DNA of 64,000 nucleotides, from the IMG/VR virus record IMGVR_UViG_2718218304_000001, positions 50,160 through 114,159 of that record. One strand, written 5' to 3'. A program made the position numbers and the translations under genes. Every line of letters starts with the position of its first letter. Position 1 is the first letter of the stretch. The notes beneath the pieces were generated by a model. The model did no database searches and was not told the origin of the DNA. It was given only the letters and a program-made list of their open reading frames with translations. Positions 2,423 through 48,787 of the stretch are shown piece after piece. The DNA is from a virus. Its lineage: Duplodnaviria; Heunggongvirae; Uroviricota; Caudoviricetes.

Positions 2423-2488
2423 CTTCTTTCTCGATAGGTAAGTAAATACCTATTTTTGCATTTGATTTTATGTCTGGCAATCAAATAA

Positions 2489-2531
2489 AACGCGCCAGAA
2501 ATGCAAACGAGAAGCTCTCTGGCGCGTTTTT
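2489..2531. terminator. candidate bidirectional rho-independent terminator
   Basis: Inverted repeat CGCGCCAGA...TCTGGCGCG flanked by A-run upstream and T-run downstream, just beyond the stop of the 2606..3415 minus-strand gene. Confidence 0.4.
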
Positions 2532-2605
2532 GTGGTGCTGGGTATGTGATTGGCTTACCCAGTACTATAAAGCTCTCTATGGGCTTTATTTTAAGTAGGG
2601 GAACG

Positions 2606-3415
2606 TCATCCAATAGTGTACTCCGCGACAAACTTCTTAACGATCGGTGATTCTTCGTTCAATGTTAGATTTCCACCGTCTCTAACGGCAATTCCTGTCG
2701 CTGGAAATACAGCCATCATTTGCCCAGCCTGAGTTGACGCAGTGTTAAGCGGATACGGTTTTTCTGGATTGCTCATTAAAGCAATCTTAATACTATTACT
2801 TGTAGCCTTCTTTTCTGTGAGAAGGTGTCTCATGGAAATTACCGTGTAAACACTAATATCTGGACCTCCGCTAAACCAATTAAGAAGGTTTAATATCTTA
2901 TCCTTTGCTTTGACAGGCGCGTTATCGTAAGCGTCTAAGAAAATATCTTTTTCTAAGCCCGCTTTATTGAAAAACGAATCATCTTTATCACTTAAAGTAA
3001 AACGAGGACCTCTTGCAGTACGAGCTTTTTTATTTGTATTGCTATCATTTGACTGTTGAACTTTTAATTCATCATTAACCTCAACACACTCTTCAACCTC
3101 AATAAATCCCAATTGTTCTGGCTCGTTTTCGGCAGCTTCAACACTTTCAGCGTTAATTACGTTTATAGGCTCATGCGCTAACTCCAACTCATTTAAAGCA
3201 GAGCTGAAATCACCTGCTTTTTCTTCATTGAAAAGTTCTTCGGCAACATCATCAGAACTCATGGCTACGCCAGCATCTAGGCCGAGCAGCAGATCGTCAA
3301 TATCATCAGTATTTTCAACCTGTGCAGCTTTTTTTACTGGTTCATCAAGTGATTGCAACATGGCTGTCAGCTCGTCCAGATCATCATTTGTCATTACATT
3401 TTCAACCGAACTCAT
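2606..3415 (-). CDS. acidic hypothetical protein
   Basis: 269-aa ORF, strongly acidic (D/E-rich) central region; no motif recognised. Confidence 0.5.
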   Translation of the reverse strand: MSSVENVMTNDDLDELTAMLQSLDEPVKKAAQVENTDDIDDLLLGLDAGVAMSSDDVAEELFNEEKAGDFSSALNELELAHEPINVINAESVEAAENEPEQLGFIEVEECVEVNDELKVQQSNDSNTNKKARTARGPRFTLSDKDDSFFNKAGLEKDIFLDAYDNAPVKAKDKILNLLNWFSGGPDISVYTVISMRHLLTEKKATSNSIKIALMSNPEKPYPLNTASTQAGQMMAVFPATGIAVRDGGNLTLNEESPIVKKFVAEYTIG

Positions 3416-3573
3416 GTAAGTCTCCTTCTGTTTGGTTACATTTGCGTTTCGATGGCTGCATTTTGACTAAACCTATCAGGCGGAAAAGTATTAAATACAG
3501 GCAGAAAATGATTGAAAGGCGACTGTTCTTTAAAAAAAAGCCTACTTTAAACTTTTTAAAGTAGGCTTTTGTT

Positions 3574-4131
3574 TTACACAATTTCAGAGGGTAATTTAAA
3601 AAATCCGTACTTATTACGTGCCTTAAAGAAGCATTGCATCATTAAGTTTGTGTCATATAAGGCACTATGTGCTTTGGCATGATCGTATATAAAGCCAAGA
3701 GAGAAGGCCAACTCTTCAAGGCGGGGACGTTTACCGTCTTCTGTGGCCCACAATCCCGATAACATAGTATCTATAACAGGAACTTCTGGCAGTCTTACTC
3801 CATACCCTGAAAACTCGTGTCGAATAAATGGTATATCAAATGCTTCGCCGTTATGAGCAACCCACACACTACATGCCCCCATATAAGCGCCAATTTCGCT
3901 GGCATGATTTGACAACAAAGGTTCAGCTGCGAGCTGTTCCAATGAAATGCCATGAACGGCTTGAGCTTTCGGATCTATGTTTCTGCGAGGGTTAAAACGC
4001 ATCTCCAGACTATCAATATGTCTCTGTGTCTCCAGTTCATAGCGGGTAATTGCGATTTCAATAATTTTATGACCAGCAAGGAAATCCAGTCCCGTAGACT
4101 CGATATCGATGCCTGCAACAATCGTTGTCAT
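3574..4131 (-). CDS. DEDDh 3'-5' exonuclease (DnaQ/epsilon-like)
   Basis: Exo I motif GIDIESTGL, Exo II VAHNGEAFDIPF, Exo III HSALYDT. Confidence 0.8.
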   Translation of the reverse strand: MTTIVAGIDIESTGLDFLAGHKIIEIAITRYELETQRHIDSLEMRFNPRRNIDPKAQAVHGISLEQLAAEPLLSNHASEIGAYMGACSVWVAHNGEAFDIPFIRHEFSGYGVRLPEVPVIDTMLSGLWATEDGKRPRLEELAFSLGFIYDHAKAHSALYDTNLMMQCFFKARNKYGFFKLPSEIV

Positions 4132-4140
4132 CAGAACTCC

Positions 4141-4560
4141 TTACAACTTCTTAGCGCCCTTAAGTAGTGCGCTACGTACAAATTGAGCCGCTTTTTTCAA
4201 AGTTTCTTCACTGGTTTCACAGACAATCGGATCTTTCCACTTACCTGACACAGTGTTGAGAATATTGATTTGGTTGCTATCCAGACAAACAGAGATATAA
4301 AGCACTGTGCCACCAGCCAGCATCAAATGCATAGGAAACAGAGGCTTTTTACTGCCTTCACTGAACTGAGACATGGCGATGTTAATGGCTTCACCCACTT
4401 GTGTACCAACAAGCCCCTGCGCAGTTTCGAATATGGCACGAATAGCCAGACGAGCCTCTCGATCGCTCATAAGCGACCGGGAATGTTCGTCCGCTACACG
4501 AATCAAAGCCTCTGTTGTTTTCCGATCCAGTTCATCTTCAAGCAACATTTCACTAAACAT
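4141..4560 (-). CDS. hypothetical protein
   Basis: 139-aa ORF in operon context; no motif recognised. Confidence 0.45.
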   Translation of the reverse strand: MFSEMLLEDELDRKTTEALIRVADEHSRSLMSDREARLAIRAIFETAQGLVGTQVGEAINIAMSQFSEGSKKPLFPMHLMLAGGTVLYISVCLDSNQINILNTVSGKWKDPIVCETSEETLKKAAQFVRSALLKGAKKL

Positions 4561-4621
4561 TTTTTATCCTTAACCCATTTTGAGAGTTTTATTGTCGCAA
4601 TGTCGAAGAGGCGAACAATTT

Positions 4622-5266
4622 CTAATGAACGGTCACTCGGCCACAGAACCGGTTTTCTATCTTTTCTACAGCGTTATCTAGCATTCTCATCACTGATCTG
4701 GCTCTTGCTTCAACCGTGCGATATCGGTTGGAAACGACGAAGGTTTGCAGATCTCCCCTTTGCGGATGCAGGTGAATTTTTGTCAGTTCCCCGCACATCA
4801 ACGCATCAATACGAGCGACATACAGACGGTCTAATGATGCTCGTTGTGATCGCAAGTAATCTCGCTCTGAGAGAGCGACTCCCGGGCGTAAGCCAGCAAT
4901 GGCGTTAAAGTTTGAAATAGCAGTTTTGTGGCAAAACTTTTCGATATCGAGGGCTAACTCAATACACCGATCTTCATTTGTATGGCCGACCAAATCCAAC
5001 GTGTAGGCCATAACATCAGCAGGTGTGCGATCGATAACAAAGCCTTCAACACCACGCGTAAGTAGCTCTATATGCTTTGCTATTTCCATTTGAATCTGAA
5101 GCCGCTCATATAGAGGCATAGAATCACCTACTCGAACACCGAGGCGGCTCATCAAACTTCCGACACCAGCATCCACGTAAGGGATTCCGTAATGTTTGTC
5201 GATATATTTAGCCAGGGTTGTTTTCCCACTGCCCTGAGCACCAGTGATCCCAATCCGGTAATCCAT
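4622..5266 (-). CDS. P-loop kinase, putative deoxynucleoside monophosphate kinase
   Basis: Walker A GAQGSGKTT near N-terminus; sits with DHFR and ThyA; loose resemblance to phage dNMP kinases. Confidence 0.5.
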   Translation of the reverse strand: MDYRIGITGAQGSGKTTLAKYIDKHYGIPYVDAGVGSLMSRLGVRVGDSMPLYERLQIQMEIAKHIELLTRGVEGFVIDRTPADVMAYTLDLVGHTNEDRCIELALDIEKFCHKTAISNFNAIAGLRPGVALSERDYLRSQRASLDRLYVARIDALMCGELTKIHLHPQRGDLQTFVVSNRYRTVEARARSVMRMLDNAVEKIENRFCGRVTVH

Positions 5267-5742
5267 TACGACCTTCTGTATACGATCTGCGAAAAGCCAG
5301 GCTCTTCCTCGCTGGCTCGTTGGGTATAAGCTGTTTCAACAGGCACAAAGCCTAAGTTACGCATCATGCTTGCCGGGAAGAATGCATCGGCGTTTGGTAC
5401 ATCAACGCCGATGTGGGAGAGCCAAATCTCTTCAACATGCGGCATGAATAGCGAGTAAATTTGTTCCCCGCCAATCACCCACACAGGCTCTGGTAATCGC
5501 AACACATCATCCACACCAGCAAGGTAGAATCCATTTGGTACAAAGCCATGAGAGCGCGTCAAAACGAGGTTATGACGCTCTGGAAGAGGGCGTTTGAGAC
5601 TTTCCATCGTTTTACGTCCCATAACGACAGTGGCGTTTTTGGTGAGTCTCTTAAATAGCTTCAGATCGGTAGAACAACGCCAGGGGAGTTCATTCGCTAT
5701 GCCGATCTCATAGTTACGGCCAACAGCAGCGATCATCTTCAT
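5266..5742 (-). CDS. folA: dihydrofolate reductase
   Basis: DHFR-like N-terminus (IAAVGRNYEIG...LPW), VIGGEQIY motif; 158 aa. Confidence 0.85.
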   Translation of the reverse strand: MKMIAAVGRNYEIGIANELPWRCSTDLKLFKRLTKNATVVMGRKTMESLKRPLPERHNLVLTRSHGFVPNGFYLAGVDDVLRLPEPVWVIGGEQIYSLFMPHVEEIWLSHIGVDVPNADAFFPASMMRNLGFVPVETAYTQRASEEEPGFSQIVYRRS

Positions 5743-6152
5743 TTGCTCACCTCATAGATGACCGGTCGATGGTGAGAGTCGGCTAAAGCGGCACGGAGTC
5801 GAGGATCGTGCACCAGCGCAGCGATAAGCAGATCGCCTTTATGCTCCGCTAATGTGCGCTTAATATGCTTCTCATAACTGGTGCCATTCGGTACGAGATG
5901 AAGCCAGTCATAATCAACGCCAAAATCTTTCAGCCATCGTTTAGTTGGCGCTTCAAGAGTTTCAGAGCGGCTACTGATAAGCACCACTTCAGCCCCTGAG
6001 CGAGCAAAACCACGCAACATACGGCTGGTGGGGAAAATGAGTTCATCACCGGCAATGAGCTGGCCTGCATCCGCGTCAGATACTGATTTACGATGGCTGG
6101 CATTTGCCAGCACACCTTCAATTTCGCATAAGACATACATACCTCTTGCCAT
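5739..6152 (-). CDS. HAD-like fold protein with atypical motif I (putative nucleotidase)
   Basis: Track ORF 5739..6200 overlaps ThyA; ATG at 6152 (MARGMYVLCEIEGVL) sits 1 nt after the ThyA stop. CEIEGVL resembles a degenerate HAD DxDGVL motif. Function uncertain. Confidence 0.35.
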   Translation of the reverse strand: MARGMYVLCEIEGVLANASHRKSVSDADAGQLIAGDELIFPTSRMLRGFARSGAEVVLISSRSETLEAPTKRWLKDFGVDYDWLHLVPNGTSYEKHIKRTLAEHKGDLLIAALVHDPRLRAALADSHHRPVIYEVSK

Positions 6153-6153
6153 A

Positions 6154-7284
6154 TCACACCGCCACTGGAACCTTGATCCACGGTAGAGGGTCATAGCCAA
6201 GAATTAAAACCTCGTCCCATTTGAAATCATCCAACTCTGACCATTCATGAGGGAAAATAACGACCGGATCTGAATGCTCTGGAGCCTGTCGCTTCATTAG
6301 CTCACACACACCTTCCATGTGGTTGTTGTACAAATGCACGTCAAAGCCAAAATGCACAAATGCACCGGCCATGTGACCCGTAATCTTCGCGAGAAAATGA
6401 GTGAGAATGCCATAGCCAGCAATATTGAATGGCATACCAACAAAAGTGTCTACGCTACGCTGTACGAGGCAGGAGTTGAGGATGCGTTTGGGGATTCCAA
6501 GTTCATCCAGTTCAGCTTCAGTAACACTGCCGTCCATCTCCAGATCGTATAGCATCTTGGTGTAGATAGACTCGTAACCGAGGCGACTGTGTTGAAGACC
6601 AATGTCAGTTGCCATCGTTAAACGGGTTTCAAAATCCAGCTCACGACTCCACAAAGAGAAGACAAAGTGGCAAGGTGGCAGTTTCATATCCTCAAGCTCG
6701 CCTACGTTCCATGCGTTAAGCATGATGCGACGATCGGTAGGGTTCGTGCGCAGTGTATCGACAATACGCTGTAGCTGATCGATTTCACGGGACAGCACTA
6801 CGCGATCTTCACTGATACCCAGGTATCCCTCGACTTTGTACCCGCGTTCACGGAAAGTATCGATCTTGCTCAGATATTCACTATGGCTCACGATGCGGGT
6901 ATCTTCCCATCGACGCCACTGCTTACCGTAAACCGGCCCCAAATCGCCATTCTCATCGGCCCATGCATCCCAAATCTTAACGCCGTTATCCTTGAGAAAT
7001 TGGATGTTGCCCGTGCCTTTCAGATACCACTCAAGTTCGACAAGTAGTGGCTTAAGATTTACCGCCTTTCCAGAAATAAGCGGCACAGTCCCACCAGTAA
7101 GCATGTAGTAAGAGGGAACGTAGCAGGTGCTTAAAGTACCAGTGCCTGTGCGATCATCAGCCTGCACGCCGCTTTTAAGCACCGTCTCAATAACTTTTGC
7201 ATACGATGCGTTTGTTACCTGACCGTTCGTATGCTCACGATTCAAAAGGAGTGACACAAAAACCTCACAAAGATAAGTAACCAC
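6154..7284 (-). CDS. thyA: thymidylate synthase (ThyA type, extended)
   Basis: DRTGTGT, NAWN, LPPCH and DTFVGMPFNIA motifs; 376 aa, longer than bacterial ThyA; N-terminal start uncertain (ATG lies inside a palindromic motif). Confidence 0.85.
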   Translation of the reverse strand: MVTYLCEVFVSLLLNREHTNGQVTNASYAKVIETVLKSGVQADDRTGTGTLSTCYVPSYYMLTGGTVPLISGKAVNLKPLLVELEWYLKGTGNIQFLKDNGVKIWDAWADENGDLGPVYGKQWRRWEDTRIVSHSEYLSKIDTFRERGYKVEGYLGISEDRVVLSREIDQLQRIVDTLRTNPTDRRIMLNAWNVGELEDMKLPPCHFVFSLWSRELDFETRLTMATDIGLQHSRLGYESIYTKMLYDLEMDGSVTEAELDELGIPKRILNSCLVQRSVDTFVGMPFNIAGYGILTHFLAKITGHMAGAFVHFGFDVHLYNNHMEGVCELMKRQAPEHSDPVVIFPHEWSELDDFKWDEVLILGYDPLPWIKVPVAV

Positions 7285-7428
7285 TTATTCATTGCGTGAG
7301 TTTACATTTATTGAGAGAACAAGACCAGACAGATAAAAAAATGGTGGCCATAGGCCACCAAAAACGAATAGTTGTTTCAGAAATTTAACGCGCCAATGCA
7401 ATATACACAGATAGATAACTACCTACAA

Positions 7429-8298
7429 TTATTTTTTGAACATTCCGTACATTGCTGAGGCTTTAGCTTGCTCAACAAAGGAGGATAAATCGACATCACT
7501 ATAGGTTGGAGACTTCAGAATCTTTCCATCGGAAATTCGAAAACCGATCATCTTATCGGTGCCATCAGCATGGCGAAATCCCAGGTCAGAAGAGTCGTAT
7601 TTGCAGTTGGCCACAGCATGGCGACGCTCTTCGGCATCTGCAGGCCATAATTTTGTCATGTTGGACCGATGAATTTCGCCAACCAGCTCGACGACATTGA
7701 TACCGAGGAAATCAGCCAGTCGATAGGTCATCATGCACGCCACATAGATTTTGTTCATTACACGGCGCAGTTCCTGAATCAGTTCAGAATCCTTAACAGT
7801 CTTGTTCTCAAGTTTATCTGCCAGCTCTTCGAGCATATATGACGCCTCACGAGCTTCCTGAAATGGCATTGCCATATCATCGAAAACAGTGTTACCAGGC
7901 ACAAAAATTGTCTGCATAAAGCGATCAATGCTCTGTTCCTGCGTGTAATAGGTCATGCCGGTAGAAATACCACCTTTGATGGCGACCATCGTACCAACAC
8001 CAACGTATAAAAAGTCGGCCATTGCATCCAGCAGTTGCTCAATATCCCCATTCATTGCAGCTGGAATACCTTCCACTACAGCTTCTTCATGAATCAGGCT
8101 TGCACGGAGACGAAGCAGCTCTGGTGTCGGCATAACGCGTCTCGGATGCTGGAAGAGTTCATGAAACTGATCGACCATCTTGTAAATACTTTCAGTAGCT
8201 ACACCATGACCTTCATGCAACTCATATGGTTCTGGCTTAAATCCAATGAGACGATCGGTGGCAAGTTTCAGGTGGTCAGTCAGTTTGGTAAAGTTCAT
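7429..8298 (-). CDS. putative all-alpha NTP pyrophosphohydrolase (MazG-like)
   Basis: Two helical segments with E-rich motifs resembling MazG/HisE; sits with nucleotide-metabolism genes. Confidence 0.45.
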   Translation of the reverse strand: MNFTKLTDHLKLATDRLIGFKPEPYELHEGHGVATESIYKMVDQFHELFQHPRRVMPTPELLRLRASLIHEEAVVEGIPAAMNGDIEQLLDAMADFLYVGVGTMVAIKGGISTGMTYYTQEQSIDRFMQTIFVPGNTVFDDMAMPFQEAREASYMLEELADKLENKTVKDSELIQELRRVMNKIYVACMMTYRLADFLGINVVELVGEIHRSNMTKLWPADAEERRHAVANCKYDSSDLGFRHADGTDKMIGFRISDGKILKSPTYSDVDLSSFVEQAKASAMYGMFKK

Positions 8299-8375
8299 GC
8301 TAGTTTTGTTCCTTCTTAATTCTTGTGATCCATTGTGGCCCAGCGTTGCCAGGCCACATAATGCTTTGTATCGGT

Positions 8376-9518
8376 TTACAGGTCTGCAAACTGGCTTAGA
8401 GAAGCCTTATCCACGGTAGAATCGATCTGACCTACCAGATATGTGCTTTGCTCTGCCTCTTGTGGCGCAATTTGCAGTGTGTCGGTTAACAACCACTTGT
8501 TCATCCAGACCAGCGGATCAGTGGTAACTTCTGGAAATAAAGCCTTCAGGCCAAGACGATTCATAGCCAGATTGGTGCGGTATTTTACATAGGTTTTGAG
8601 AATATCCGCGTTTAAACCAATCATCGAACCGTCTTTGAAGAGATAGTCTGCCCAGTTCATTTCTTGTTCGGCGACTGATTTCATGGTGTCGTAAATGACG
8701 TTTTCTTCATCAGCAGCAATCTCTTTCCACAATAAACCTTCGCGACCGGTACGCATGAAGCGGATCATGCGTTCAGTTCCTTCGCAATGCAGAGCTTCAT
8801 CACGGGCAATAAAGCGCATAATTTTGGTGTTACCCTCAAGCAACTTCCGTTCACCAAAGGCAAACGTACATGCAAAACTTACGTAGAAACGGATCGCCTC
8901 AAGCGCATTAATGGACACCAACGTGCGGAAAAGCTGACGATGCAAAGGGTATGGCTCCCAGCCATATTCATTTACGTACAGACGCTCAAATTCCTTCTCA
9001 CCTAACGACTGGCGCTCGCAGGTCATCCCATAAAGCCTGTCATATTCAGCAGAGATACTGATCGCTCGGTTGATGATTTCTTCATCCGTAACAATACCGT
9101 CAAAAACAATGCTCGGATCGTCCACCATGCCACGAATAATGTGGGTGTAGCTGCGGCTATGGATAGTCTCAGAGAAAGACCACGTTTCAACCCACGTTTC
9201 CAGTTCAGGAATAGAGATAAGCGGCAGAAGCGTTGCATTTGGGCTACGTCCCTGAACTGAATCGAGTAACGTTTGATAACGGAGATTGCTCAGAAAAATG
9301 TGACGTTCGTGGTCCCGCAGCTTCGTGTTGAAGTCGATACGATCACTCGAAATATCAACTTCTTCCGGCCGCCAGAAGAAAGACAATTGACGTTCAATCA
9401 ACTTTTCAAAATCACGGTATTTTTGCTGATCGTAACGTGCCACGTTGACAGATTGTCCGAGGAACATAGGCTCTTTGGTTGCATCATTAGCACCCAAACG
9501 GAACGTTGAATATGACAT
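8376..9518 (-). CDS. nrdB: ribonucleotide reductase class Ia beta subunit
   Basis: 380 aa; diiron/tyrosyl-radical region and overall NrdB-like sequence; adjacent to nrdA. Confidence 0.9.
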
Positions 9519-9624
9519 GTGTTTTTCCTTTTTCTTTTTTAGTGCGTTTAAACAAGTTGTTATCTTATGTGTTTAAACAAGGCTTACAAATCAAAGAGAA
9601 GGTGGGGATATCCCCCACCATATG

Positions 9625-11940
9625 TCAGATTTTGCAGGCTCCGTCGCACTCATCTTCTGGCTCGACGGCTACAGCTTGCGTCAGTGGATTCTGCGGTTCG
9701 TCGTCATCACGCTTTCCTGCCCCATCTCTGGTGTTGTGGTAGTAAAGCGTTTTAACTCCCATCTTGTAGGCGAGAAGCAAATCTGACAGTAGCGTCATCA
9801 TTGGGACTTTATCGCCTTCAAAGCGAGAAGGGTCATAGTTGGTATTGGCTGAAATAGCCTGGTCAAAGAACTTCTGGATGATCGCCACCTTTGTCAGATA
9901 GCCGCGGTTGTCCGGCATATCCCACAGGTATTCATACTGTTCCTTCAGTTTTTCAAACTCAGGCACGACCATCTTAACGATGCCGTCCTTAGAAGATTTC
10001 ACCGACACCGGGCCACGAGGCGGTTCGATGCCGTTGGTGGAATTAGTGATCTGGCTGGAAGTCTCGCATGGCATTTGTGCCGTCAGTGTGGAGTTGCGAA
10101 GGCCGTATTTTGCAATACGTTCACGCAGTTCTTCCCACGGCATCTTTAACTCAAAGTTGGTTTCGCCACTTTCGTCTAATGAAGAACGGTAATGGTCGAT
10201 CGGCAACTGACCAATTGCGTACTTGGTCTGCTCAAACCAGTCACACTCACCTTTTGCTTCAGCAAGTCGGCAGCTGGCATCAAGAAGGTAATACTGGATA
10301 GCTTCGAACGTTTCATGCACCAGTTTATTGTCAGCGGTATCAGAATAACGAACGCCATTCTTTGCCAGGTAATAAGCAAAGTTGGTTACACCAATTCCCA
10401 AGCTACGACGAGCTTTGGCAGGCACTTCGGCTGCCTCCATCGGATAGTCTTGATAATCCAGTAACGAATCCAGTGCAGCAACGGCATAGAACGCCACCTC
10501 TTTAAGAGACTCCAGTGAACGGATGGCTCCGAGGTTAAAAGCGGATAAAGTGCATAGCGCGATCTCACCGTTCGGGTCGTCGGTAAATGCCAGTGGACGA
10601 GTGGGTAGAGTGATCTCCATGCACAGGTTTGACTGGCGAACAGGTGCAAGAGCAGGAATGAAAGCGCCATGCTCGTTAATATGATCGACGTTCGCAATAT
10701 AAATTCGGCCCGTGGACGCTCGTTCCTGCATCAGAGATGAGAACAGCTCAATGGCAGGTACTGACTTCTTGCGAATTGAATCATCGGCTTCGTATTTATG
10801 GTACAGCTTTTCAAACAGATCCTGGTCTGTGAAGAAGGCTTCGTACATATCAGGCACATCATGCGGGCTGAACAGAGTGATGTTCTCGCTTCTGACGAGT
10901 CGACGGTACATTAGACGGTTACTCATGACGCCGTAATCAAGATGGCGAACGCGGTTTTCATCAATACCACGGTTATTTTTCACCACCAGCAGACTTTCAA
11001 CTTCAAGATGCCAGATCGGGTAAAACGCTGTTGCTGCGCCACCACGAACACCACCTTGCGAGCAAGATTTAACAGCAGTCTGGAAATGCTTCAGGAATGG
11101 AATAACTCCGGTATGGGTGGCTTCACCATTGCGGATCTCACTGCCCAGCGCACGGATACGGCCAAAACCAATACCAATTCCAGCACGACGTGAAACGTAG
11201 TCGATAATTGCGGCTGAAGCTGCACTAATCCCTTTCAGACTATCGCCAGACTCAATCAGCACACAACTGGAGAACTGACGGGTTGGAGTACGGACGCCGG
11301 CCATGATTGGTGTGGGCAGAGACAGTTTGAACGTACTTGTAACGTCATAGAAACCTTTGACCATCTCCATACGTGTTTTGCCCGCGCAGTCGTCTTCCCA
11401 ATTCTGGAACAGACACATGCCCACCAGCATATAGATATGTTGCGGGCCTTCGTGAATCTCACCAGTAACACGGTTTTGAACGAGGTATTTGCTTTGCAAC
11501 TGCACCGTAGCTGCATAGCCAAAAAGATCGTCACGTTTCGGCTTAATGTAATTGCCGAGTTCTTCGATCTCTTCAAACGAATAATGTGTCAGCAAATCCT
11601 TGTCATAAACGCCCTTGTTAACGTTCTTGACAATGTGTTGGTAGAAGTTCGGATAGTCGTAACGACCGAAGGCATCTTTGCGGATTTTAAAAATGTTCAG
11701 GCGGGCAGCCACCTGTGAGTAATTTGGTGCTTCTGGTGAGATCAAATCAGCGGCAGATTTAACCAAAGCCTCATGCAACTGGCTGGTGGTAATCCCATCA
11801 AAAATGCTGGCCGCAGCTCCCATTGCTACAGCGGATGCGCTTACACCACGAATGCCTTCTACGCCATACATTACGACGCGGTTGTATTTTTCTTCGGATA
11901 ACGGCTCTGTTTGGCCGTTACGTTTTACGATGCTTATCAT
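9625..11940 (-). CDS. nrdA: ribonucleotide reductase class Ia alpha subunit
   Basis: 771 aa; N-terminal ATP-cone, FSSCVLIE active-site region, C-terminal CxxC tail; highly similar to E. coli NrdA as I recall it. Confidence 0.92.
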   Translation of the reverse strand: MISIVKRNGQTEPLSEEKYNRVVMYGVEGIRGVSASAVAMGAAASIFDGITTSQLHEALVKSAADLISPEAPNYSQVAARLNIFKIRKDAFGRYDYPNFYQHIVKNVNKGVYDKDLLTHYSFEEIEELGNYIKPKRDDLFGYAATVQLQSKYLVQNRVTGEIHEGPQHIYMLVGMCLFQNWEDDCAGKTRMEMVKGFYDVTSTFKLSLPTPIMAGVRTPTRQFSSCVLIESGDSLKGISAASAAIIDYVSRRAGIGIGFGRIRALGSEIRNGEATHTGVIPFLKHFQTAVKSCSQGGVRGGAATAFYPIWHLEVESLLVVKNNRGIDENRVRHLDYGVMSNRLMYRRLVRSENITLFSPHDVPDMYEAFFTDQDLFEKLYHKYEADDSIRKKSVPAIELFSSLMQERASTGRIYIANVDHINEHGAFIPALAPVRQSNLCMEITLPTRPLAFTDDPNGEIALCTLSAFNLGAIRSLESLKEVAFYAVAALDSLLDYQDYPMEAAEVPAKARRSLGIGVTNFAYYLAKNGVRYSDTADNKLVHETFEAIQYYLLDASCRLAEAKGECDWFEQTKYAIGQLPIDHYRSSLDESGETNFELKMPWEELRERIAKYGLRNSTLTAQMPCETSSQITNSTNGIEPPRGPVSVKSSKDGIVKMVVPEFEKLKEQYEYLWDMPDNRGYLTKVAIIQKFFDQAISANTNYDPSRFEGDKVPMMTLLSDLLLAYKMGVKTLYYHNTRDGAGKRDDDEPQNPLTQAVAVEPEDECDGACKI

Positions 11941-42383: not shown

Positions 42384-43196
42384 TTACCAGGTCGCCCAGC
42401 CAGTCATTTTGTCCTGAGCAGCTTCGAACCGGTATGGGTCCAGTAAATCGTTGGCATGGTGGACGGCGTAGGATTTGGCTTCTTGTTTAATCATGGGTAA
42501 TTCGTTGGCCAGACGAGCCACTTGCCCTGCAAAACTGGCGAGTACTCCGTCACATGCCTGACCCGCGTCGACAATGATGCGCACCAGGTCTAAGTCGCTG
42601 CGGCACATATCGCAGATAATGCCGTATTCCACCTCACGAATGCGCTCAACGGCTTTTTTGATATCGCCACTGACCACCAATTCCAGCAAACCAGGTGGAG
42701 TTGTCAGATCTGTTACGCGCTCGGTAACTTCAGACTGTTCGACAATACTCAGGAACGCCGCGATGGACGGGTCATCCGCCACACCAGCTCTGACTTTGAG
42801 CGTGCGAAGAGTTGCGTCGACAATATCCTCAAACCGTTCACCTTCATCGCACACAGTCTGATTGGTGTAGACAGTCTGATTAGTGTAGACAATGCGACCG
42901 TCGTACCATGCACCGGTACTCACTTCGACCGTTGCGTCTTTCATCTCGCGAGAGAACGCCACAAGTGCCGCGCGTTTCTGCTTAACACCTGGCAACTCCG
43001 GGGACTCTCCAAAACGAACCCAGACCTGCATGTATTTCGAGCCTTCCGAAAGAGGTGCGGCGCTCACGGACGTGGCGATATGCTCCAGCGCAGTTTGGAT
43101 CGCCTCGTCGATAATCTTCTGGCGCTCTTCTGTATCAATTTCTACGCCGGATTTGTCGATGATGTCGCAGACTAACTTCTGAAATTCTTCTTTCAT
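42384..43196 (-). CDS. hypothetical protein
   Basis: 270-aa ORF; internal tandem repeat IVYTNQTV YTNQTV. Confidence 0.5.
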   Translation of the reverse strand: MKEEFQKLVCDIIDKSGVEIDTEERQKIIDEAIQTALEHIATSVSAAPLSEGSKYMQVWVRFGESPELPGVKQKRAALVAFSREMKDATVEVSTGAWYDGRIVYTNQTVYTNQTVCDEGERFEDIVDATLRTLKVRAGVADDPSIAAFLSIVEQSEVTERVTDLTTPPGLLELVVSGDIKKAVERIREVEYGIICDMCRSDLDLVRIIVDAGQACDGVLASFAGQVARLANELPMIKQEAKSYAVHHANDLLDPYRFEAAQDKMTGWATW

Positions 43197-43259
43197 AGCA
43201 ACTCCTGACTAACAGATGAAAGTATTCTTTCAGAAAAATAAGTAAGTATCTACTTATTA

Positions 43260-43737
43260 TATCGGGCGCAATAGTCTGCTATACGAAGAAGCCAGGCGTA
43301 AAAACCACTCGGATGCACATCCAGCACCCGACAAAGCAGTCGGACAGGCCAGCAATGGGTGTTGTCACGGATAAAGGCGTACCTCAGTCGGACAGCTTTG
43401 CGAAGTACGCCGCGCTTTTTTTAATATGTCCCGTTCGTCGGTAACCCGCTTCAGCTCTTTCTGGAGACGGCGGATCTCGGCCTGAGCATCTGACTGTTCT
43501 TTATTAGTGGAAGAATCCGGACCGTACTTCTTTATCCAGGAGTAAAGGCTGTGGGTGGTGATATCGAGACGTGTTGCAACGCTGGCAACAGAATAACCGC
43601 GATCAACAACCTGTTTGACTGCTTCAATTTTTAAACTCTTCGGGATAACGCTTACCGCTCATGGGCACCTCTCTTTAAGTCATCTTAAATGACTCTGAGG
43701 TGTCTATTAAACCTGTGGCGATTCAATACACTAAATC
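43260..43737 (-). mobile_element. IS3-family insertion sequence remnant (left end + orfA + first ~30 codons of orfB; 3' part missing)
   Basis: orfA-like frame (MSGKRYPEEFK...ILKKAAAYFAKLSD) and orfB N-terminus (...CRVLDVHPSGFYAWL...) on the minus strand, ending abruptly at the backbone palindromic motif. Confidence 0.65.
43384..43662 (-). pseudogene. IS3-family transposase orfA, frameshifted
   Basis: ATG at about 43662; an A5 run after codon 12 gives a premature stop, while removing one A restores a ~92-aa OrfA-like HTH protein. Confidence 0.6.
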
Positions 43738-43883
43738 AATAAGTTGGTAGCATTACCGATGAATTTGACAATTTAAACTAAAAAATAAACTACGAAGTAA
43801 TTTTAATGTTATGTTTCCATATACATGGTATACTGTCCCCATGAATATCCAGACAGTTGGTTACAGCGCCTGCTGGGCAAAAA

Positions 43884-44856
43884 AACCATGGAAAACGAGC
43901 TGCTGAAAGAAGCCGTTGAATATGGCCGACAAAAAAAGTGGATAGCGCACGTGCCCTTGTTGCCGGAGGATGGTGAATGAGCCTTGTCAGTCGTTGCCTC
44001 CGGGTCTCACGTGCGCAACTGCATGCCATGGCCCGTCGGTCGAAGGGCTGGCAGGATCGTCGGTGCAAGCGCAAGCCTGATGATACTGAAGCGCTGGCTC
44101 GTATCCATACCGTTATCGACGATCTGCCCACCTATGGTTATCGTCGTGTATGGGTACTGCTGCGCAGACAATCAGAAACTGACGACATGGCGGTGATCAA
44201 TGCCAAACGCGTATACCGCATCATGCGTCAGAATGCGCTGCTGCTTGAGCGTAAACCGGCAATACCGCCCTCGAAGCGGGCGCATAGAGGGAAAGTGGCC
44301 GTTGGAGAAAGTAACCAGCGGTGGTGCTCCGACGGCTTCGGGTTCAGCTGTGATAACGGTGAAAAACTGCGGATCACGTTCGCGCTGGACTGTTGCGAGC
44401 GCGAGGCACTTCACTGGGCAGCAAGTACCGGTGGATATGACAGTGAAACCGTGCAGGACGTCATGCTGGGTGCAGTAGAGCGTCGCTTCGGTAACAGGCT
44501 GCCGACATCCCCCGTTGAGTGGCTGACAGACAACGGTTCAGCCTACCGTTCTCATCAGACGCGTCAGTTCGCCAGAATGGTAGGACTGGAGCCAAAACAT
44601 ACGGCGGTACGTAGTCCAGAAAGCAACGGAATGGCGGAGAGCTTCGTGAAAACGATGAAGCGCGACTACATCAGTATCATGCCAAAACCTGACGGGTTAA
44701 CAGCGGCAAAGAACCTTGCGGAGGCCTTCGAACATTACAACGAATGGCATCCGCACAGTGCACTGGGATATCGTTCTCCACGGGAATATCTGCGGCGGCG
44801 AACCAGTAATGGGTTAAGCGATAAAAAGTGTCTGGAAATATAGGGGCCAATCCACA
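43884..44856 (+). mobile_element. IS2-like element, 5'-truncated (last ~30 codons of orfA, complete orfB, right inverted repeat)
   Basis: orfA C-terminus [39 protein letters not shown] matches my recollection of IS2 InsC; right end ...TATAGGGGCCAATCCA. Confidence 0.8.
43977..44843 (+). CDS. insD: IS2-like transposase OrfB (InsD-like, DDE integrase core)
   Basis: 288 aa, highly similar to IS2 InsD as I recall it (..YGYRRVW..LRRQ..; DDE/RNase H-fold core). Confidence 0.85.
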
Positions 44857-44984
44857 TGGAAATGTTTTTGATTAAAATAAAAAATATTCTTTTATATTGC
44901 TCTATCATTTTTATTTTTAGTAATTTATTAGCAAGAGATTGCGATCTCTTTTTTAGTTAAAGCAAATTAGTTAAGGATTAGTCT

Positions 44985-45536
44985 ATGAAACGTTCAATTA
45001 TTGCGGCTACTGTATTAGCATCTCTTTTTATGAGCGCAGGATCATTTGCAGCAGAAGGGAGTACAGAGGGTCAGTTAACTATTAACGGTAAAGTCACAGA
45101 GACTACATGTCAGTTCCTGAGCGGTAGTGAGAATACAACAATTTCGATGAGCGAAATTGGTCGTGATCAATTTGAAAATGTAGAAGTTGGCTCCCCCGTT
45201 ACCACTTATTCAAATACAACATCTTTACCACTAAAAGTTAAATGTCCCGGAGAAAAAAAACCAAGAATTACCTTCTCCAGCACCCAATTTGAAGGAACGG
45301 GTTCAAATGTTACTCGCAATACTGGTGATGCTAGCGGTGTCGGTTTCGCTGTTTTTTTGGGGAAAGGTACTGATTCTAGCAAGCGGATTTCTGGTAATAG
45401 TCCTATTGAGTTAACATCAGCTACTAATAATGGTGAATATGAGTTGCATTTTACGGCGCAATACGCAAAAGCAGCTGATGATGTGAGTACTGGCGAAGTT
45501 AGTTCTGCGATAACAATGACCGTTGTAACAGATTAA
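44985..45536 (+). CDS. fimbrial major subunit (chaperone-usher pilin)
   Basis: Signal peptide MKRSIIAATVLASLFMSAGSFA; conserved Cys pair (TCQF...KVKCPG); ~160-aa mature pilin-like protein. Confidence 0.8.
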   Translation: MKRSIIAATVLASLFMSAGSFAAEGSTEGQLTINGKVTETTCQFLSGSENTTISMSEIGRDQFENVEVGSPVTTYSNTTSLPLKVKCPGEKKPRITFSSTQFEGTGSNVTRNTGDASGVGFAVFLGKGTDSSKRISGNSPIELTSATNNGEYELHFTAQYAKAADDVSTGEVSSAITMTVVTD

Positions 45537-45591
45537 CATGATGTTTATCGGCGGCTTCGGTCGCCGATTTTCAATCGCAAGGATTGTTATC

Positions 45592-46272
45592 ATGAAAAAA
45601 TTAATAGCCTTCTTACTAACCGTAACGGTCCCATCTGCGTGGGGCGGTGTCTATATTTACGGCACTCGCGTTATTTATCCGGAACAGAAAAAAGAGATTG
45701 CAGTTCAGTTAATGAATGAAGGTGAGCGTAGTGCTCTTGTTCAGTCGTGGATTGATGATGGCGATGCCAGCCTTCCTCCGGAAAAGATTAGTGTACCTTT
45801 TGTGCTGACTCCACCGGTAGTTCATGTTAGTAAGGGTGAAGGACAGCAACTGAAAATTAAACAACTGGCGAACACTCTACCTAAAGATCGCGAAAGTCTG
45901 TTCTTCCTTAATGTACTGGATATTCCACCTAATAGTGAGAAATACGAAGGCAAGAATCTGATTAAATTCGCGATGCAAAATCGTATCAAATTTATTTATC
46001 GCCCAAAAGGTATAACAAGAGTCGATAAAGAGAGTTTTTCCCGGATTAATATCAGACCCGTTGATAGAGGCATTAACATAAAAAATAATTCAGCGAACTG
46101 GATAACCATTCCTGAATTAACCGGGAATGCGAAAATTAATAAGGAGACACTACTGCTGGCACCCTGGTCAGATCAGACTGTCAAAACGACATCCGTTGTT
46201 AACTATTACAATGTTACTCTGATTGATGATCATGGAAACTATTTGAGTGAAAAAATAAAAACTGCTAAATAG
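45592..46272 (+). CDS. periplasmic fimbrial chaperone (PapD/FimC-like)
   Basis: Track ORF 45538..46272; ATG at 45592 with AAGGA SD and signal peptide MKKLIAFLLTVTVPSAWG; PapD-like motifs (IYPE, LVQSWID, NRIKFIYRP). Confidence 0.85.
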   Translation: MKKLIAFLLTVTVPSAWGGVYIYGTRVIYPEQKKEIAVQLMNEGERSALVQSWIDDGDASLPPEKISVPFVLTPPVVHVSKGEGQQLKIKQLANTLPKDRESLFFLNVLDIPPNSEKYEGKNLIKFAMQNRIKFIYRPKGITRVDKESFSRINIRPVDRGINIKNNSANWITIPELTGNAKINKETLLLAPWSDQTVKTTSVVNYYNVTLIDDHGNYLSEKIKTAK

Positions 46273-46289
46273 ATTAGCAGGGATTGGTT

Positions 46290-48776
46290 ATGTCAAAGTT
46301 TAATTCTATTACACTGGCTATTCTGTCAGTATTAGCGACTTCGCATACATGGGCTAAGGGTGAAACGTTTAATACCAATTTTATGATTGGTGGTTTAAAT
46401 GGGGAGAAAATTTCTAACTACCATATTGATAGTGATAAGCCGATGCCGGGTATCTACGCTATGGATGTTTATCTGAATAATCAATGGCGTGGCCACTATG
46501 ATATTGATATTAAAGATGACCCTAATGCAACATGTTTATCCATGGAGCAATTAAAGCAAATTGGGATCCTCACTGAAGGAATTAGTATCGATAAAGGCGT
46601 AGAATGTGTACCACTTCGGGATGCTGTCCAGGGAGGCAGCGTCGACTATGATATTGGGCATTTTAACCTAAAATTAAGCGTGCCCCAAGCCTATGTTCTG
46701 AAATATGAACATGGCTATATTCCGCCTGAAGCATGGGATCGCGGGATTAACGCATTATATACATCTTATTATGCCAGTCAGTATTACAGTGATTATAAAA
46801 ACGGCGGAGATGATAAAAGTAGCTATCTAAATCTGAACAGTGGGTTAAATCTCCTGGGCTGGCAGCTGCATTCAAATGCCAATTATACGAAAAGCGACGA
46901 AAACAGCGGTAAATGGAAGAGTAACACGCTATATCTGGAACGTGGAATTCCACAAATTCTCGGCACGTTTCGCGCAGGTGAAATGTATACTGGTTCTGAT
47001 GTTTTTGACTCCGTGCGTTTTCGCGGCGTGCGCCTTTGGCGCGATATGCAGATGTTACCGAACTCTAAACAGAATTTTACTCCTGTGGTACGCGGCGTTG
47101 CCCAGAGTAACGCACTCGTCACCATAGAACAAAATGGTTTTGTGGTTTACCAGAAAGAAGTACCGCCAGGCCCATTCGCCATTGATGATTTGCAACTTTC
47201 TAATGGTGGGGCAGATTTGGAAGTTATCGTCAAAGAAGCTGATGGTTCAACGTCGTACTATCGGGTGCCTTATTCATCGGTGCCAAATATGTTGCAACCT
47301 GGCGTTTCTAAATATGAATTTTCAGCCGGACGTAGTCATATTGAAGGAGCCAGCAATCAATCTGATTTTATCCAGGGAAGCTATAAGCATGGTTTCAACA
47401 ATTTGCTGACAGGTTATGGCGGCACGCTGTTATCTGATAATTACTCATCGTTTGTTCTTGGAACAGGATGGAATACACCGATTGGTGCTATATCGGTTGA
47501 TTTTACCCATTCATACAGCAAGCAAGACAACGGTGATGTGTTTAACGGTCAAAGTTATCAGATTGCCTGGAATAAATATCTCTCTCAGAGCGGAACACAA
47601 TTTTCTCTGGCGGCCTGGCGTTATTCCTCTCGGGGTTATCGTACTTTTAACGATCATGTATGGGCAAATAACAAAAATAGATACAATCGAGAAGACAACT
47701 CAGGCTATGACATTGCCAACTACTACCAGTATGATTTTGGTCGCAAGAATAGCTTTTCTTTAAATATCAACCAGTCATTACCGGAAAATTGGGGGTATCT
47801 GGCGATCAGCGGTCAATGGCGAGATTACTGGGAACGTAGCGGGACAGGGAAAAATTACCAACTAAGCTATACGAACTCATGGGAACGTCTAAGTTATACC
47901 TTGTCGGTTAGCCAGACATACGATGAGGATAACAGCGAAGACAGACGCATTAACTTATTTTTCTCAATCCCCTTCTCGTGGCGTGATAATATCACCGAAA
48001 AACGACGAGATTTATTTATCTCTAACTCGACCACATTTGATAAAGACGGCTACCAGTCAAATACTACCAGCCTCAGTGGTGTAGCTGGGAACCGTGATCA
48101 GTTCAGCTACGGGGCTAACTTTAGCCATCAACAACAGGACAGCGAAGCAACAGCAGGTGGAAATCTGATTTGGCGTGCGCCAGTGGCTACCATTGGTGGC
48201 AGCTATAGCCAGTCGAAAAAATATCAACAGATAAGTGGTAATATTCAAGGTGGTTTAGTCGCGTGGTCAGACGGGATAGCACTGGCTCCCAGACTTTCAG
48301 ATACATTTACCATCGTCCATGCTCCGGGGCTGGATGGGGCTGCGGTACAGGGGTATCGTTACCTGAGCACGGATAGCCGAGGTTACGCTATTTATGACAG
48401 CCTGACGCCGTATCGTAAAAACACGTTGATGCTGGATACTTCTGACAGTCAAAGCGATGTGGCACTACTGGGCAACCGTAAAAGCACCGCTCCTTATCGT
48501 GGGGCCGTTGTGATGACGCAGTTTGATACTGACAAACGTAAACCCTGGTATTTCCTTGCTCAGCGCCCGGATGGTTCTCCATTATCGTTCGGTTATGAAG
48601 TTGAAGATGAAAGCGGTAAGAATGTGGGCTTGGTAGGACAGGGAAGTCGGATATTTATTCGCACTGATGATGTTCCCGCATCGATTCGCGTCTCGGTTAA
48701 TAAACAGCAGGAAAAATTCTGTACTATTACCTTTGATAACGTTATTGATGAGAATAAAGTTTATATTTGTCGTTAA
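46290..48776 (+). CDS. outer-membrane fimbrial usher (FimD/PapC-like)
   Basis: ~830 aa, signal peptide, usher-like sequence throughout, C-terminal Cys pair; track start 46284 is TTG, ATG at 46290. Confidence 0.85.
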   Translation: MSKFNSITLAILSVLATSHTWAKGETFNTNFMIGGLNGEKISNYHIDSDKPMPGIYAMDVYLNNQWRGHYDIDIKDDPNATCLSMEQLKQIGILTEGISIDKGVECVPLRDAVQGGSVDYDIGHFNLKLSVPQAYVLKYEHGYIPPEAWDRGINALYTSYYASQYYSDYKNGGDDKSSYLNLNSGLNLLGWQLHSNANYTKSDENSGKWKSNTLYLERGIPQILGTFRAGEMYTGSDVFDSVRFRGVRLWRDMQMLPNSKQNFTPVVRGVAQSNALVTIEQNGFVVYQKEVPPGPFAIDDLQLSNGGADLEVIVKEADGSTSYYRVPYSSVPNMLQPGVSKYEFSAGRSHIEGASNQSDFIQGSYKHGFNNLLTGYGGTLLSDNYSSFVLGTGWNTPIGAISVDFTHSYSKQDNGDVFNGQSYQIAWNKYLSQSGTQFSLAAWRYSSRGYRTFNDHVWANNKNRYNREDNSGYDIANYYQYDFGRKNSFSLNINQSLPENWGYLAISGQWRDYWERSGTGKNYQLSYTNSWERLSYTLSVSQTYDEDNSEDRRINLFFSIPFSWRDNITEKRRDLFISNSTTFDKDGYQSNTTSLSGVAGNRDQFSYGANFSHQQQDSEATAGGNLIWRAPVATIGGSYSQSKKYQQISGNIQGGLVAWSDGIALAPRLSDTFTIVHAPGLDGAAVQGYRYLSTDSRGYAIYDSLTPYRKNTLMLDTSDSQSDVALLGNRKSTAPYRGAVVMTQFDTDKRKPWYFLAQRPDGSPLSFGYEVEDESGKNVGLVGQGSRIFIRTDDVPASIRVSVNKQQEKFCTITFDNVIDENKVYICR

Positions 48777-48787
48777 AGGATTTGTTT

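What the first reader, a model, noticed from the sequence alone, without database searches (positions are those of the whole stretch)
43260..44856. Nested IS remnants: 3'-truncated IS3-family element with frameshifted orfA, abutting a 5'-truncated IS2-like element
On the minus strand an IS3-family left end, an orfA with an extra A in an A-run, and only ~30 codons of orfB end abruptly at the backbone motif near 43258. About 150 bp away a plus-strand IS2-like element lacks its first ~360 bp but keeps a complete InsD-like orfB and right end. Two decayed IS copies at one locus mark an insertion hotspot and the boundary of acquired cargo.
Basis: partly seen in the sequence, partly recalled or inferred. 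Interest (0 to 1): 0.5.

Follow-up and report, generated by a model that had tools for sequence, protein, structure and literature searches.

The report
Dead insertion sequences edging a cargo island
The flagged stretch is ordinary debris of three dead insertion sequences at the left edge of a 7.4-kb fimbrial and toxin-antitoxin island, which sits in a variable slot of an SSU5-type phage-plasmid; public annotation already marks the two larger pieces as transposase pseudogenes.

Summary

(1) 43288-43725 (-) is the first 438 bp of a 1,229-bp IS3-family element, called "ISX" here. The extra A is present but absent from three sampled relatives. A 1-bp loss beside the slippery run is shared by all four.

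(2) 43726-43757 is a missed 32-bp IS1 left-end tip.

(3) The IS2-like element (ISEc36-like, 43829-44854, +) is not 5'-truncated. It keeps its left inverted repeat and an intact 5-bp target duplication (CATGG). It carries a 304-bp internal deletion that removes the orfA start.

(4) The last 51 bp of ISX lie 7 kb away (50674-50724, same strand). The two ISX pieces therefore bracket a yehD-like fimbrial operon and a phd/doc module. Their outer ends face inward. Their broken inner ends join the backbone at 10-bp and 11-bp microhomologies, which points to illegitimate recombination rather than transposition.

The slot between the SSU5_042 homologue and the primase gene holds six different contents in relatives. 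This supports the "hotspot / cargo boundary" reading. The arrangement is shared by 21 public plasmids, and RefSeq already calls both pieces pseudogenes. Interest is low.

The parts
42384..43196 (-). Backbone gene (270 aa, no Pfam hit). It is the homologue of SSU5_042 and forms the left wall of the variable slot.
   Evidence: ORF list; annotated as hypothetical in relatives; SSU5 synteny; no Pfam family.
43237..43258 (+). Palindromic backbone motif AATAAGTAAGTATCTACTTATT, 41 bp upstream of the backbone gene start.
   Evidence: 9 matches (up to 3 mismatches), all on the + strand, against 0.26 expected by chance. Conserved in L005 and SSU5.
43259..43297 (.). Lineage-specific backbone tail, shared with L004, L007 and L008 but not with L005 or SSU5.
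   Evidence: Backbone identity to L004 and L008 runs to 43297; identity to L005 stops at 43257.
43288..43297 (.). Left junction: 10-bp microhomology GAAGCCAGGC, common to the backbone and ISX positions 429-438.
   Evidence: Three-way comparison of L004, window and ISX.
43288..43725 (-). 5' fragment (positions 1-438) of a 1,229-bp IS3-family element ('ISX'). It holds the left IR, a doubly frameshifted orfA (43384-43662) and the first ~40 codons of the orfB frame.
   Evidence: 97.0% to the full copy in L002 with 2 indels. Frame analysis. Frame-corrected OrfA hits HTH_Tnp_1 at 9e-20.
43726..43757 (-). IS1 left-end tip (IS1 positions 1-32, outer end at 43757), cut off by the ISX left end.
   Evidence: 29/32 identical to the IS1A/IS1B left IR in L006 and L008. 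The same IS1::ISX joint is in L007. The joint occurs only in the 21 plasmids plus pYLPI6a.
43758..43828 (+). Native DNA from upstream of the yehD-like fimbrial operon; it continues at 44860-44984.
   Evidence: Collinear with the unoccupied chromosomal site in E. coli FG92-1 (L009): 92.8% and 93.3% on the two sides.
43824..43828 (.). Left copy of the 5-bp target-site duplication CATGG.
   Evidence: Read directly from the sequence. L009 has a single CATAG at this position.
43829..44854 (+). Internally deleted ISEc36-like element (IS3 family, IS2 group), 1,026 bp. It comprises the left IR (43829-61), a deletion joint with GT overlap (43860-61), the orfA tail with its A7G run (43931-38), orfB (43977-44843) and the right IR ending at 44854.
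   Evidence: Element positions 1-33 at 87.9% and 336-1330 at 98.9% to the L002 copy. PGAP names the L003 copy ISEc36. Relatives carry a near-canonical left IR. Pfam rve, rve_3 and HTH_21.
44855..44859 (.). Right copy of the target-site duplication CATGG.
   Evidence: Present in L012; four of its bases are missing in L010 and L011, which carry a divergent IS2-like 3' patch.
44985..49870 (+). Cargo: a four-gene yehD-like chaperone-usher fimbrial operon.
   Evidence: ORFs; annotation in CP142569.1; ~86% identical operons at other sites in other plasmids.
49955..50671 (+). Cargo: a phd/doc toxin-antitoxin pair plus the start of a pdcA-like gene, about 91% identical to 90-130-kb plasmids.
   Evidence: annotations Phd/YefM, death-on-curing, PdcA.
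50674..50724 (-). 3' tip of ISX (positions 1179-1229, right IR with outer end at 50674 facing the cargo).
   Evidence: 98.0% to the full copy. Sequence shown. The pdcA'::ISX joint occurs only in the same 21 plasmids.
50714..50724 (.). Right junction: 11-bp microhomology TAATACTGGTT, common to ISX and to the backbone just after the primase stop codon (50724-26).
   Evidence: Three-way comparison; primase annotation.

Best explanation
The flagged stretch is the left edge of a 7.4-kb mosaic cargo island (about 43288-50724). The island sits in the variable slot between the SSU5_042 homologue and the primase gene of an SSU5-group phage-plasmid.

Order on the + strand:
1. backbone
2. ISX positions 438->1
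3. a 32-bp IS1 tip
4. fimbrial-operon upstream DNA, carrying an internally deleted ISEc36-like element with both ends and its CATGG duplication
5. the yehD-like fimbrial operon
6. a phd/doc/pdcA' module
7. ISX positions 1229->1179
8. backbone

Shown:
- The two ISX pieces are non-overlapping parts of the same IS type, on the same strand.
- Their true ends (IRL and IRR) face the cargo. Their internal breakpoints are fused to the backbone through 10-bp and 11-bp microhomologies.
- About 2.2 kb of an L008-like slot content has been replaced.

Inferred:
- A donor segment bounded by ISX sequence was captured by short-homology illegitimate recombination, not by transposition. The donor was either two direct ISX copies flanking the cargo, or the equivalent circle of one ISX plus cargo opened inside the IS.
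- The ISEc36-like element inserted earlier by normal transposition into the fimbrial promoter region. It then lost 304 bp, including the orfA start and its DNA-binding domain.

No intact transposase remains, so none of the three IS pieces can transpose on its own. The island is inherited vertically in one plasmid sub-lineage.
For: - ISX fragments and coordinates.
- Permuted order and inward-facing ends.
- Microhomologies of 10 and 11 bp at the two junctions, shown against the L004 backbone and full ISX.
- Backbone without the island (L005, 41-bp spacer) and other slot contents (SSU5 ORF 041; L008 hypothetical gene + IS1B + TPR gene; L004, a deletion of L008; L007 IS5 + sulfatase genes).
- ISEc36-like left IR, deletion joint and CATGG duplication. 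Relatives have a 32/33 canonical left IR. Unoccupied chromosomal target.
- IS1 tip.
- phd/doc module.
- Same arrangement in 21 plasmids at 98-100% identity.
- Deletion joint single-copy and plasmid-only in 24 of 5,426 E. coli genomes.
- PGAP pseudogene calls.
Against: - The order of events is not resolved. pYLPI6a (L007) shares the left junction and the IS1 tip but has other cargo and a different right junction. The two junctions may therefore have arisen at different times, or cargo was later swapped by homologous recombination.
- No donor with intact IS1::ISX or pdcA::ISX joints was found in PLSDB.
- A transposition-first history followed by two deletions gives the same end product.
- Two relatives (L010, L011) lack 4 bp of the right CATGG copy and carry a divergent IS2-like 3' end. 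The duplication is therefore not universal in the lineage.
Confidence: 0.7

Rival explanations
1. Composite-transposon entry. An ISX-cargo-ISX unit transposed into the slot. Two later, independent deletions then removed the outer part of each ISX copy together with the adjacent backbone.
For: Two same-strand ISX pieces bracket the cargo. Full ISX copies are common and apparently active in Enterobacteriaceae: 184 of 5,426 E. coli genomes carry a copy covering at least 80% of the element. The site is rich in IS.
Against: No outer ISX end and no target duplication survive. The history needs two separate deletions, each starting inside an ISX copy and each landing on a 10-11-bp match in the backbone. 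The ISX pieces have different flanks (IS1 tip versus pdcA'), so they were not one insertion.
Confidence: 0.2
2. A 3'-truncated IS3-family copy and a 5'-truncated IS2-like copy decayed independently side by side, after repeated insertion at a backbone hotspot.
For: Both are pseudogenes, and the slot is variable.
Against: The IS2-like element keeps its left IR and its target duplication, and it sits in imported fimbrial DNA rather than in backbone. The IS3-family element's missing end is 7 kb away. An IS1 tip lies between the two elements.
Confidence: 0.07
3. The cargo was inserted into a single resident ISX copy, so the two pieces are the halves of a split IS (true nesting).
For: Two pieces of one IS type lie on the same strand.
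Against: A split minus-strand IS would read 1229->p, cargo, p->1 on the + strand. The observed order is the reverse (438->1, cargo, 1229->1179), and the IS ends, not its interior, touch the cargo.
Confidence: 0.02
4. Assembly artefact or chimera.
For: The extra A lies in a homopolymer and is absent from the three sampled relatives. That single base could be a sequencing error.
Against: The whole arrangement, including both junctions, recurs in 21 independently sequenced plasmids from several countries and hosts.
Confidence: 0.01

Closest known systems
ISEc36 (IS3 family, IS2 group), as named by PGAP on pNUITM-VR1_2
   Same: 95-99% nucleotide identity over element positions 336-1330. IS2-type ends (TAGACTGG... 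/ ...CCAATCCA), a 5-bp target duplication, an A7G slippery run and a DDE (rve) orfB.
   Different: 304 bp (positions 34-337) are deleted, removing the orfA start and HTH region. In this window the left IR carries four mismatches to the L002 copy. An ATA->ATG change gives orfB its own start codon. The copy is single and shows no sign of mobilisation.
Unnamed 1,229-bp IS3-family element ('ISX'). Copies about 93% identical are labelled ISEhe3 in Shigella phage SfIV.
   Same: TG...CA inverted repeats, orfA with HTH_Tnp_1, an A7G slippery site and an overlapping orfB frame. 97-98% identity to full copies.
   Different: Only positions 1-438 and 1179-1229 remain, 7 kb apart. orfA has +1 and -1 indels. 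The catalytic domain is absent. The ISfinder name could not be checked.
IS1 (IS1A/IS1B)
   Same: 29/32 identity to the left terminal inverted repeat.
   Different: Only 32 bp remain, and there is no transposase.
Cargo acquisition by SSU5-group phage-plasmids via IS and transposons, as described in the phage-plasmid literature
   Same: The backbone is 94% identical to phage SSU5. Accessory genes flanked by IS debris sit in a variable region. Surveys of these elements report gain of accessory genes through IS, transposons and integrons (bioRxiv 10.1101/2025.09.12.675607; PMC8085198).
   Different: The cargo here is a fimbrial operon plus phd/doc rather than resistance genes. The backbone joints are microhomology joints inside an IS, not IS ends.

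Membership tests
IS3 family (ISX fragment, 43288-43725 and 50674-50724) | Terminal inverted repeats of the 5'-TG...CA-3' type | tested here: met
   TGAATCGCCAC... at 43725 and ...GTGGCGATTCA (read as its complement) at 50674. These match both ends of the full copies in L002 and L003.
IS3 family (ISX fragment, 43288-43725 and 50674-50724) | orfA with an HTH domain, followed by an A6G/A7G -1 frameshift site and an overlapping orfB | tested here: met
   HTH_Tnp_1 at 9e-20 on the frame-corrected OrfA. The A7G run and the orfB frame are present. The reading frame is broken by two indels.
IS3 family (ISX fragment, 43288-43725 and 50674-50724) | DDE (rve) catalytic domain and a complete element with a 3-bp target duplication | tested here: not met
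   Positions 439-1178 are absent. The flanks TAT and TAA differ. The full L002 copy has an AAC/AAC duplication. This is a remnant, not a functional member.
IS3 family, IS2 group / ISEc36 (43829-44854) | High nucleotide identity to an element annotated as ISEc36 | tested here: met
   98.9% to the L002 copy and about 95.5% to the PGAP-named ISEc36 in L003. Not checked against ISfinder itself.
IS3 family, IS2 group / ISEc36 (43829-44854) | Both terminal repeats and a 5-bp target-site duplication | tested here: met
   Left IR at 43829-61 (29/33 here, 32/33 in L010). Right IR ends at 44854. CATGG lies on both sides. An unoccupied site exists in L009.
IS3 family, IS2 group / ISEc36 (43829-44854) | Intact orfA-orfB able to give the OrfAB transposase | tested here: not met
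   The orfA start and HTH are deleted (304 bp). Only the last ~38 orfA codons remain. orfB is open with rve domains. PGAP flags it as a pseudogene.
IS1 family (43726-43757) | IS1 terminal inverted repeat | tested here: met
   GGTAATGCTACCAACTTATTGATTTAGTGTAT against GGTGATGCTGCCAACTTACTGATTTAGTGTAT in L006 and L008, 29/32. Nothing else of IS1 is present.
Composite transposon / IS-bounded translocatable unit (43288-50724) | Two IS copies with intact outer ends, and a target duplication in the recipient | tested here: not met
   The outer parts of both ISX copies are missing. The backbone joints are internal to the IS, at 10-bp and 11-bp microhomologies.
Non-autonomous (MITE-like) IS derivative, for the deleted ISEc36-like element | The same deleted form present at several different loci | tested here: not met
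   The deletion joint is found once per genome, only on plasmids of this lineage, in 24 of 5,426 E. coli genomes.
SSU5-group phage-plasmid (context) | Collinear backbone with phage SSU5 around the slot | tested here: met
   93.7% identity and 100% coverage of the ligase-to-helicase segment against JQ965645. Only this segment was tested.

The most novel reading that the evidence does not exclude
The intergenic slot between the SSU5_042 homologue and the primase gene may be a dedicated cargo-exchange site of SSU5-group phage-plasmids. Foreign DNA would be captured there by short-homology (10-11 bp) recombination, possibly by the element's own replication or recombination functions, rather than by transposition. 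IS sequences would merely supply the ends. As a by-product, the ISEc36-like right end 130 bp upstream of yehD could alter expression of an otherwise silent fimbrial operon.
Probability: 0.12. Interest if true: 0.4.

Novelty: already known. Interest (0 to 1): 0.18.

Why it matters
The practical value is in annotation and history.
- It fixes the true limits of a fimbrial + phd/doc island on a widespread E. coli phage-plasmid lineage found in livestock, food and humans.
- It shows the island is stuck in place, with no working transposase.
- It documents one slot of the SSU5 backbone that has accepted at least six different contents.
- The microhomology joints are a small, clean example of cargo capture without transposition.

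None of this changes what is known about IS elements or phage-plasmids.

Tried and rejected
- MAFFT alignment of the window against full ISEc36 did not place the left IR. It was recognised by eye and then confirmed by blastn and in relatives.
- Split-IS ("nested") model for ISX: rejected because the fragment order is reversed.
- MITE-like trans-mobilised derivative: rejected, because the deletion joint is single-locus.
- Outward hybrid promoter at the ISEc36-like right end: one 9/12 match at 44851-44878, but the number of promoter-like hits in the region (2) is no higher than in shuffles (mean 2.5). This is kept only as speculation.
- Search for donors with intact IS1::ISX or pdcA::ISX joints in PLSDB: none outside this lineage and pYLPI6a.
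- Naming ISX: PGAP gives only "IS3 family transposase". The ISEhe3 label comes from a 93% match in phage SfIV and a literature term search. ISfinder was not available.
- The pYLPI6a right boundary (…CCGTGGCGATTCA|CAATGTG…) may be a 13-bp ISX right-end tip or an IS903-internal sequence. This was not resolved and is not used in the argument.
- The first Python attempts could not see L002 and L003, because several loci share one file.

Full report
**Context.** The window around the finding is 98-100% identical to 21 E. coli or Enterobacter plasmids of 106-218 kb. Its best match over the flagged stretch is pA320_p0 (CP142569.1). The neighbouring genes are dnaE, a cobT-like gene, ligase, primase and a DnaB-like helicase. 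The ligase-to-helicase segment of an island-free relative, pNT1F34-108k, is 93.7% identical to Salmonella phage SSU5 over its whole length. The replicon is therefore an SSU5/pHCM2-group phage-plasmid.

**The IS3-family fragment.** I aligned the minus strand of 43230-43800 with two full copies of an IS3-family element, from Klebsiella pKqu-1 (L002) and Raoultella pNUITM-VR1_2 (L003). The alignment shows a 1,229-bp element, which I call ISX, with ends TGAATCGCCAC...GTGGCGATTCA.
- The window holds ISX positions 1-438 at 43725-43288, at 97.0% identity with two indels.
It stops orfA at codon 13.
- The other is a 1-bp loss directly after the A7G slippery run (43415-22). It returns translation to the original frame.
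- The frame-corrected OrfA is a clear HTH_Tnp_1 protein.
- In three relatives sampled across the identity range (L010, L011, L012) the extra A is absent and the 1-bp loss is present. The extra A is thus a recent mutation or a homopolymer error. The element was already dead without it.
- PGAP annotates this piece as a frameshifted transposase lacking its C-terminus.

**The IS2-like element.** The plus-strand element is 98.9% identical to positions 336-1330 of the ISEc36-type copy in L002. PGAP names the L003 copy ISEc36. That is wrong.
- Window 43829-43861, TATACTGTCCCCATGAATATCCAGACAGTTGGT, is the element's left inverted repeat, 29/33 against TAGACTGGCCCCCTGAATCTCCAGACAGTTGGT.
- In relative L010 the same position reads TAGACTGGCCCCATGAATCTCC..., 32/33.
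- The 5 bp outside the two ends are both CATGG (43824-28 and 44855-59). This is the duplication size seen for the full L002 copy, which has CAGAC on both sides.
- The element is therefore 1,026 bp long, with both ends and a 304-bp internal deletion joined across a 2-bp GT overlap.
- The deletion removes the orfA start and its DNA-binding part.
- orfB (43977-44843) stays open and has rve, rve_3 and HTH_21 domains. Without the OrfA portion no OrfAB transposase can be made.
- The deletion joint occurs once per genome, only on plasmids, in 24 of 5,426 complete E. coli genomes. There is no sign that the deleted form has moved.

**What lies between and around the two elements.**
- The 32 bp next to the ISX left end (43726-43757) are an IS1 left terminal repeat, 29/32 to IS1A/IS1B.
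- From 43758 onward the DNA is native sequence from upstream of a yehD-like fimbrial operon. An E. coli chromosome (FG92-1, L009) carries the same upstream region uninterrupted, with a single CATAG where the window has CATGG-IS-CATGG.
- The ISEc36-like element therefore inserted into the fimbrial locus itself. It is part of the cargo, not an insertion into the phage-plasmid backbone.

**The other end of ISX and the island limits.**
- A blastn of full ISX against the whole window finds a second piece: positions 1179-1229 at 50724-50674, on the same strand.
- Its outer (right IR) end at 50674 faces left, toward the cargo. The left IR at 43725 faces right.
- Between them lie the fimbrial operon (44985 to about 49870) and a phd/doc/pdcA' module (49955-50671). 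That module is about 91% identical to 90-130-kb plasmids in which the adjacent gene is called PdcA. PdcA is a phage P1 gene name; this last point rests on my own knowledge.
- The order 438->1, cargo, 1229->1179 is the reverse of what a split IS would give. It is what results when two direct ISX copies flank the cargo and each loses its far side, or equivalently when a circle of one ISX plus cargo is opened inside the IS.

**The junctions with the backbone.**
- The closest backbones lacking the island are pE16EC1016-4 (L004) and an E. fergusonii plasmid (L008). Against them, backbone identity runs to 43297 on the left and resumes at 50714 on the right.
- ISX identity covers 43288-43725 and 50674-50724.
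- The overlaps are GAAGCCAGGC (10 bp) on the left and TAATACTGGTT (11 bp) on the right. The right overlap lies just after the primase stop codon.
- Neither joint is at an IS end. Overlaps of this length are far beyond chance. I therefore infer short-homology illegitimate recombination rather than transposition.
- The island replaces about 2.2 kb that L008 carries in the slot (a hypothetical gene, IS1B and a TPR gene). L004 is a deletion derivative of L008.

**The slot is variable.** Relatives show six different contents at this site:

| Relative | Content of the slot |
|---|---|
| pNT1F34-108k and many Enterobacter, Salmonella, Citrobacter and Kluyvera plasmids | a 41-bp spacer |
| phage SSU5 | one + strand ORF (SSU5_041) |
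| L008 | hypothetical gene + IS1B + TPR gene |
| L004 | remnant of the L008 content |
| pYLPI6a (L007) | IS5 + sulfatase + sulfatase maturase |
| this window | fimbrial operon + phd/doc island |

- pYLPI6a shares the window's left junction, the ISX fragment and the IS1 tip exactly, up to 43757. It then diverges and has a different right joint.
- The left junction is therefore older than, or independent of, the present cargo. The order of events cannot be fully reconstructed.
- No donor carrying intact IS1::ISX or pdcA::ISX joints was found in PLSDB.

**Comparison with what is known.** All three IS types are known families, and the two larger remnants are already flagged as pseudogenes in RefSeq. 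Surveys of phage-plasmids report that SSU5-group elements gain accessory genes through IS, transposons and integrons (bioRxiv 10.1101/2025.09.12.675607; PMC8085198). The finding is an ordinary cargo boundary. The points added here are:
- the correct anatomy of the ISEc36-like element
- the IS1 tip
- the distant ISX tip that defines the island
- the two microhomology joints

**Verdict.** Novelty is nil at the level of kind, and interest is low (0.18).

Noticed in passing
window 43237-43258; also 215, 2433, 7272, 16669, 39792, 54251 (+ strand): A palindromic AT-rich motif (consensus about GATAAGTAAGTAnnTACTTATC) occurs 9 times, all on the + strand, against 0.26 expected by chance. Several copies lie 11-120 bp upstream of minus-strand ORF starts. 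It may be a backbone promoter or operator element. The left limit of the variable slot in SSU5 and L005 lies 12-13 bp beyond it.
   Followed up: partly
window 48846-49367: The 5' part of the last fimbrial gene (the putative tip adhesin) is highly divergent between the window and CP142569.1: about 240 differences in 520 bp, while the rest of the island is more than 99% identical. It also has no match in pYLMB53a. This looks like an allelic swap of a receptor-binding domain.
   Followed up: partly
window 49955-50671: A phd/doc/pdcA' module about 91% identical to plasmids that carry P1-type gene names sits on an SSU5-group backbone. That suggests exchange between two phage-plasmid families. ISX inserted 2 bp beyond the end of this homology.
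   Followed up: partly
L010 and L011, aligned to window 44726-44878: Two relatives carry a divergent, IS2-like version of the last ~130 bp of the ISEc36-like element plus altered flanking bases. They also lack CATG of the right target-duplication copy. This suggests a later gene-conversion patch from another IS2-group copy.
   Followed up: partly
window 43825-43980 (+): The internal deletion puts the orfA tail in frame with an ATG inside the left CATGG duplication. The result is a 51-codon chimeric ORF that still contains the A7G slippery run. In principle a truncated OrfAB-like protein without the HTH could be produced.
   Followed up: no
window 43931-43937 and 43628-43632: Homopolymer length differs among relatives at the ISEc36-like slippery A-run (7 A here and in L011, 6 in L010 and L012) and at the ISX orfA T-run. 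These may be real slippage mutations or sequencing errors.
   Followed up: no
L007 (pYLPI6a) 8890-8925: The right boundary of the sulfatase cargo reads ...ATCAACCGTGGCGATTCA|CAATGTGTATG. Either a 13-bp ISX right-end tip abuts the backbone 12 bp left of the window's joint, or this is an IS903-internal sequence. It was not resolved.
   Followed up: no
L006 (pYLMB53a) 1831-10341: Another SSU5-group plasmid carries an ~86% identical fimbrial operon at a different site, next to repA. It is flanked by IS1A, an intact IS2-group element (81% to ISEc36) and a 193-bp ISX right-end fragment. The same three IS types accompany this operon elsewhere.
   Followed up: partly
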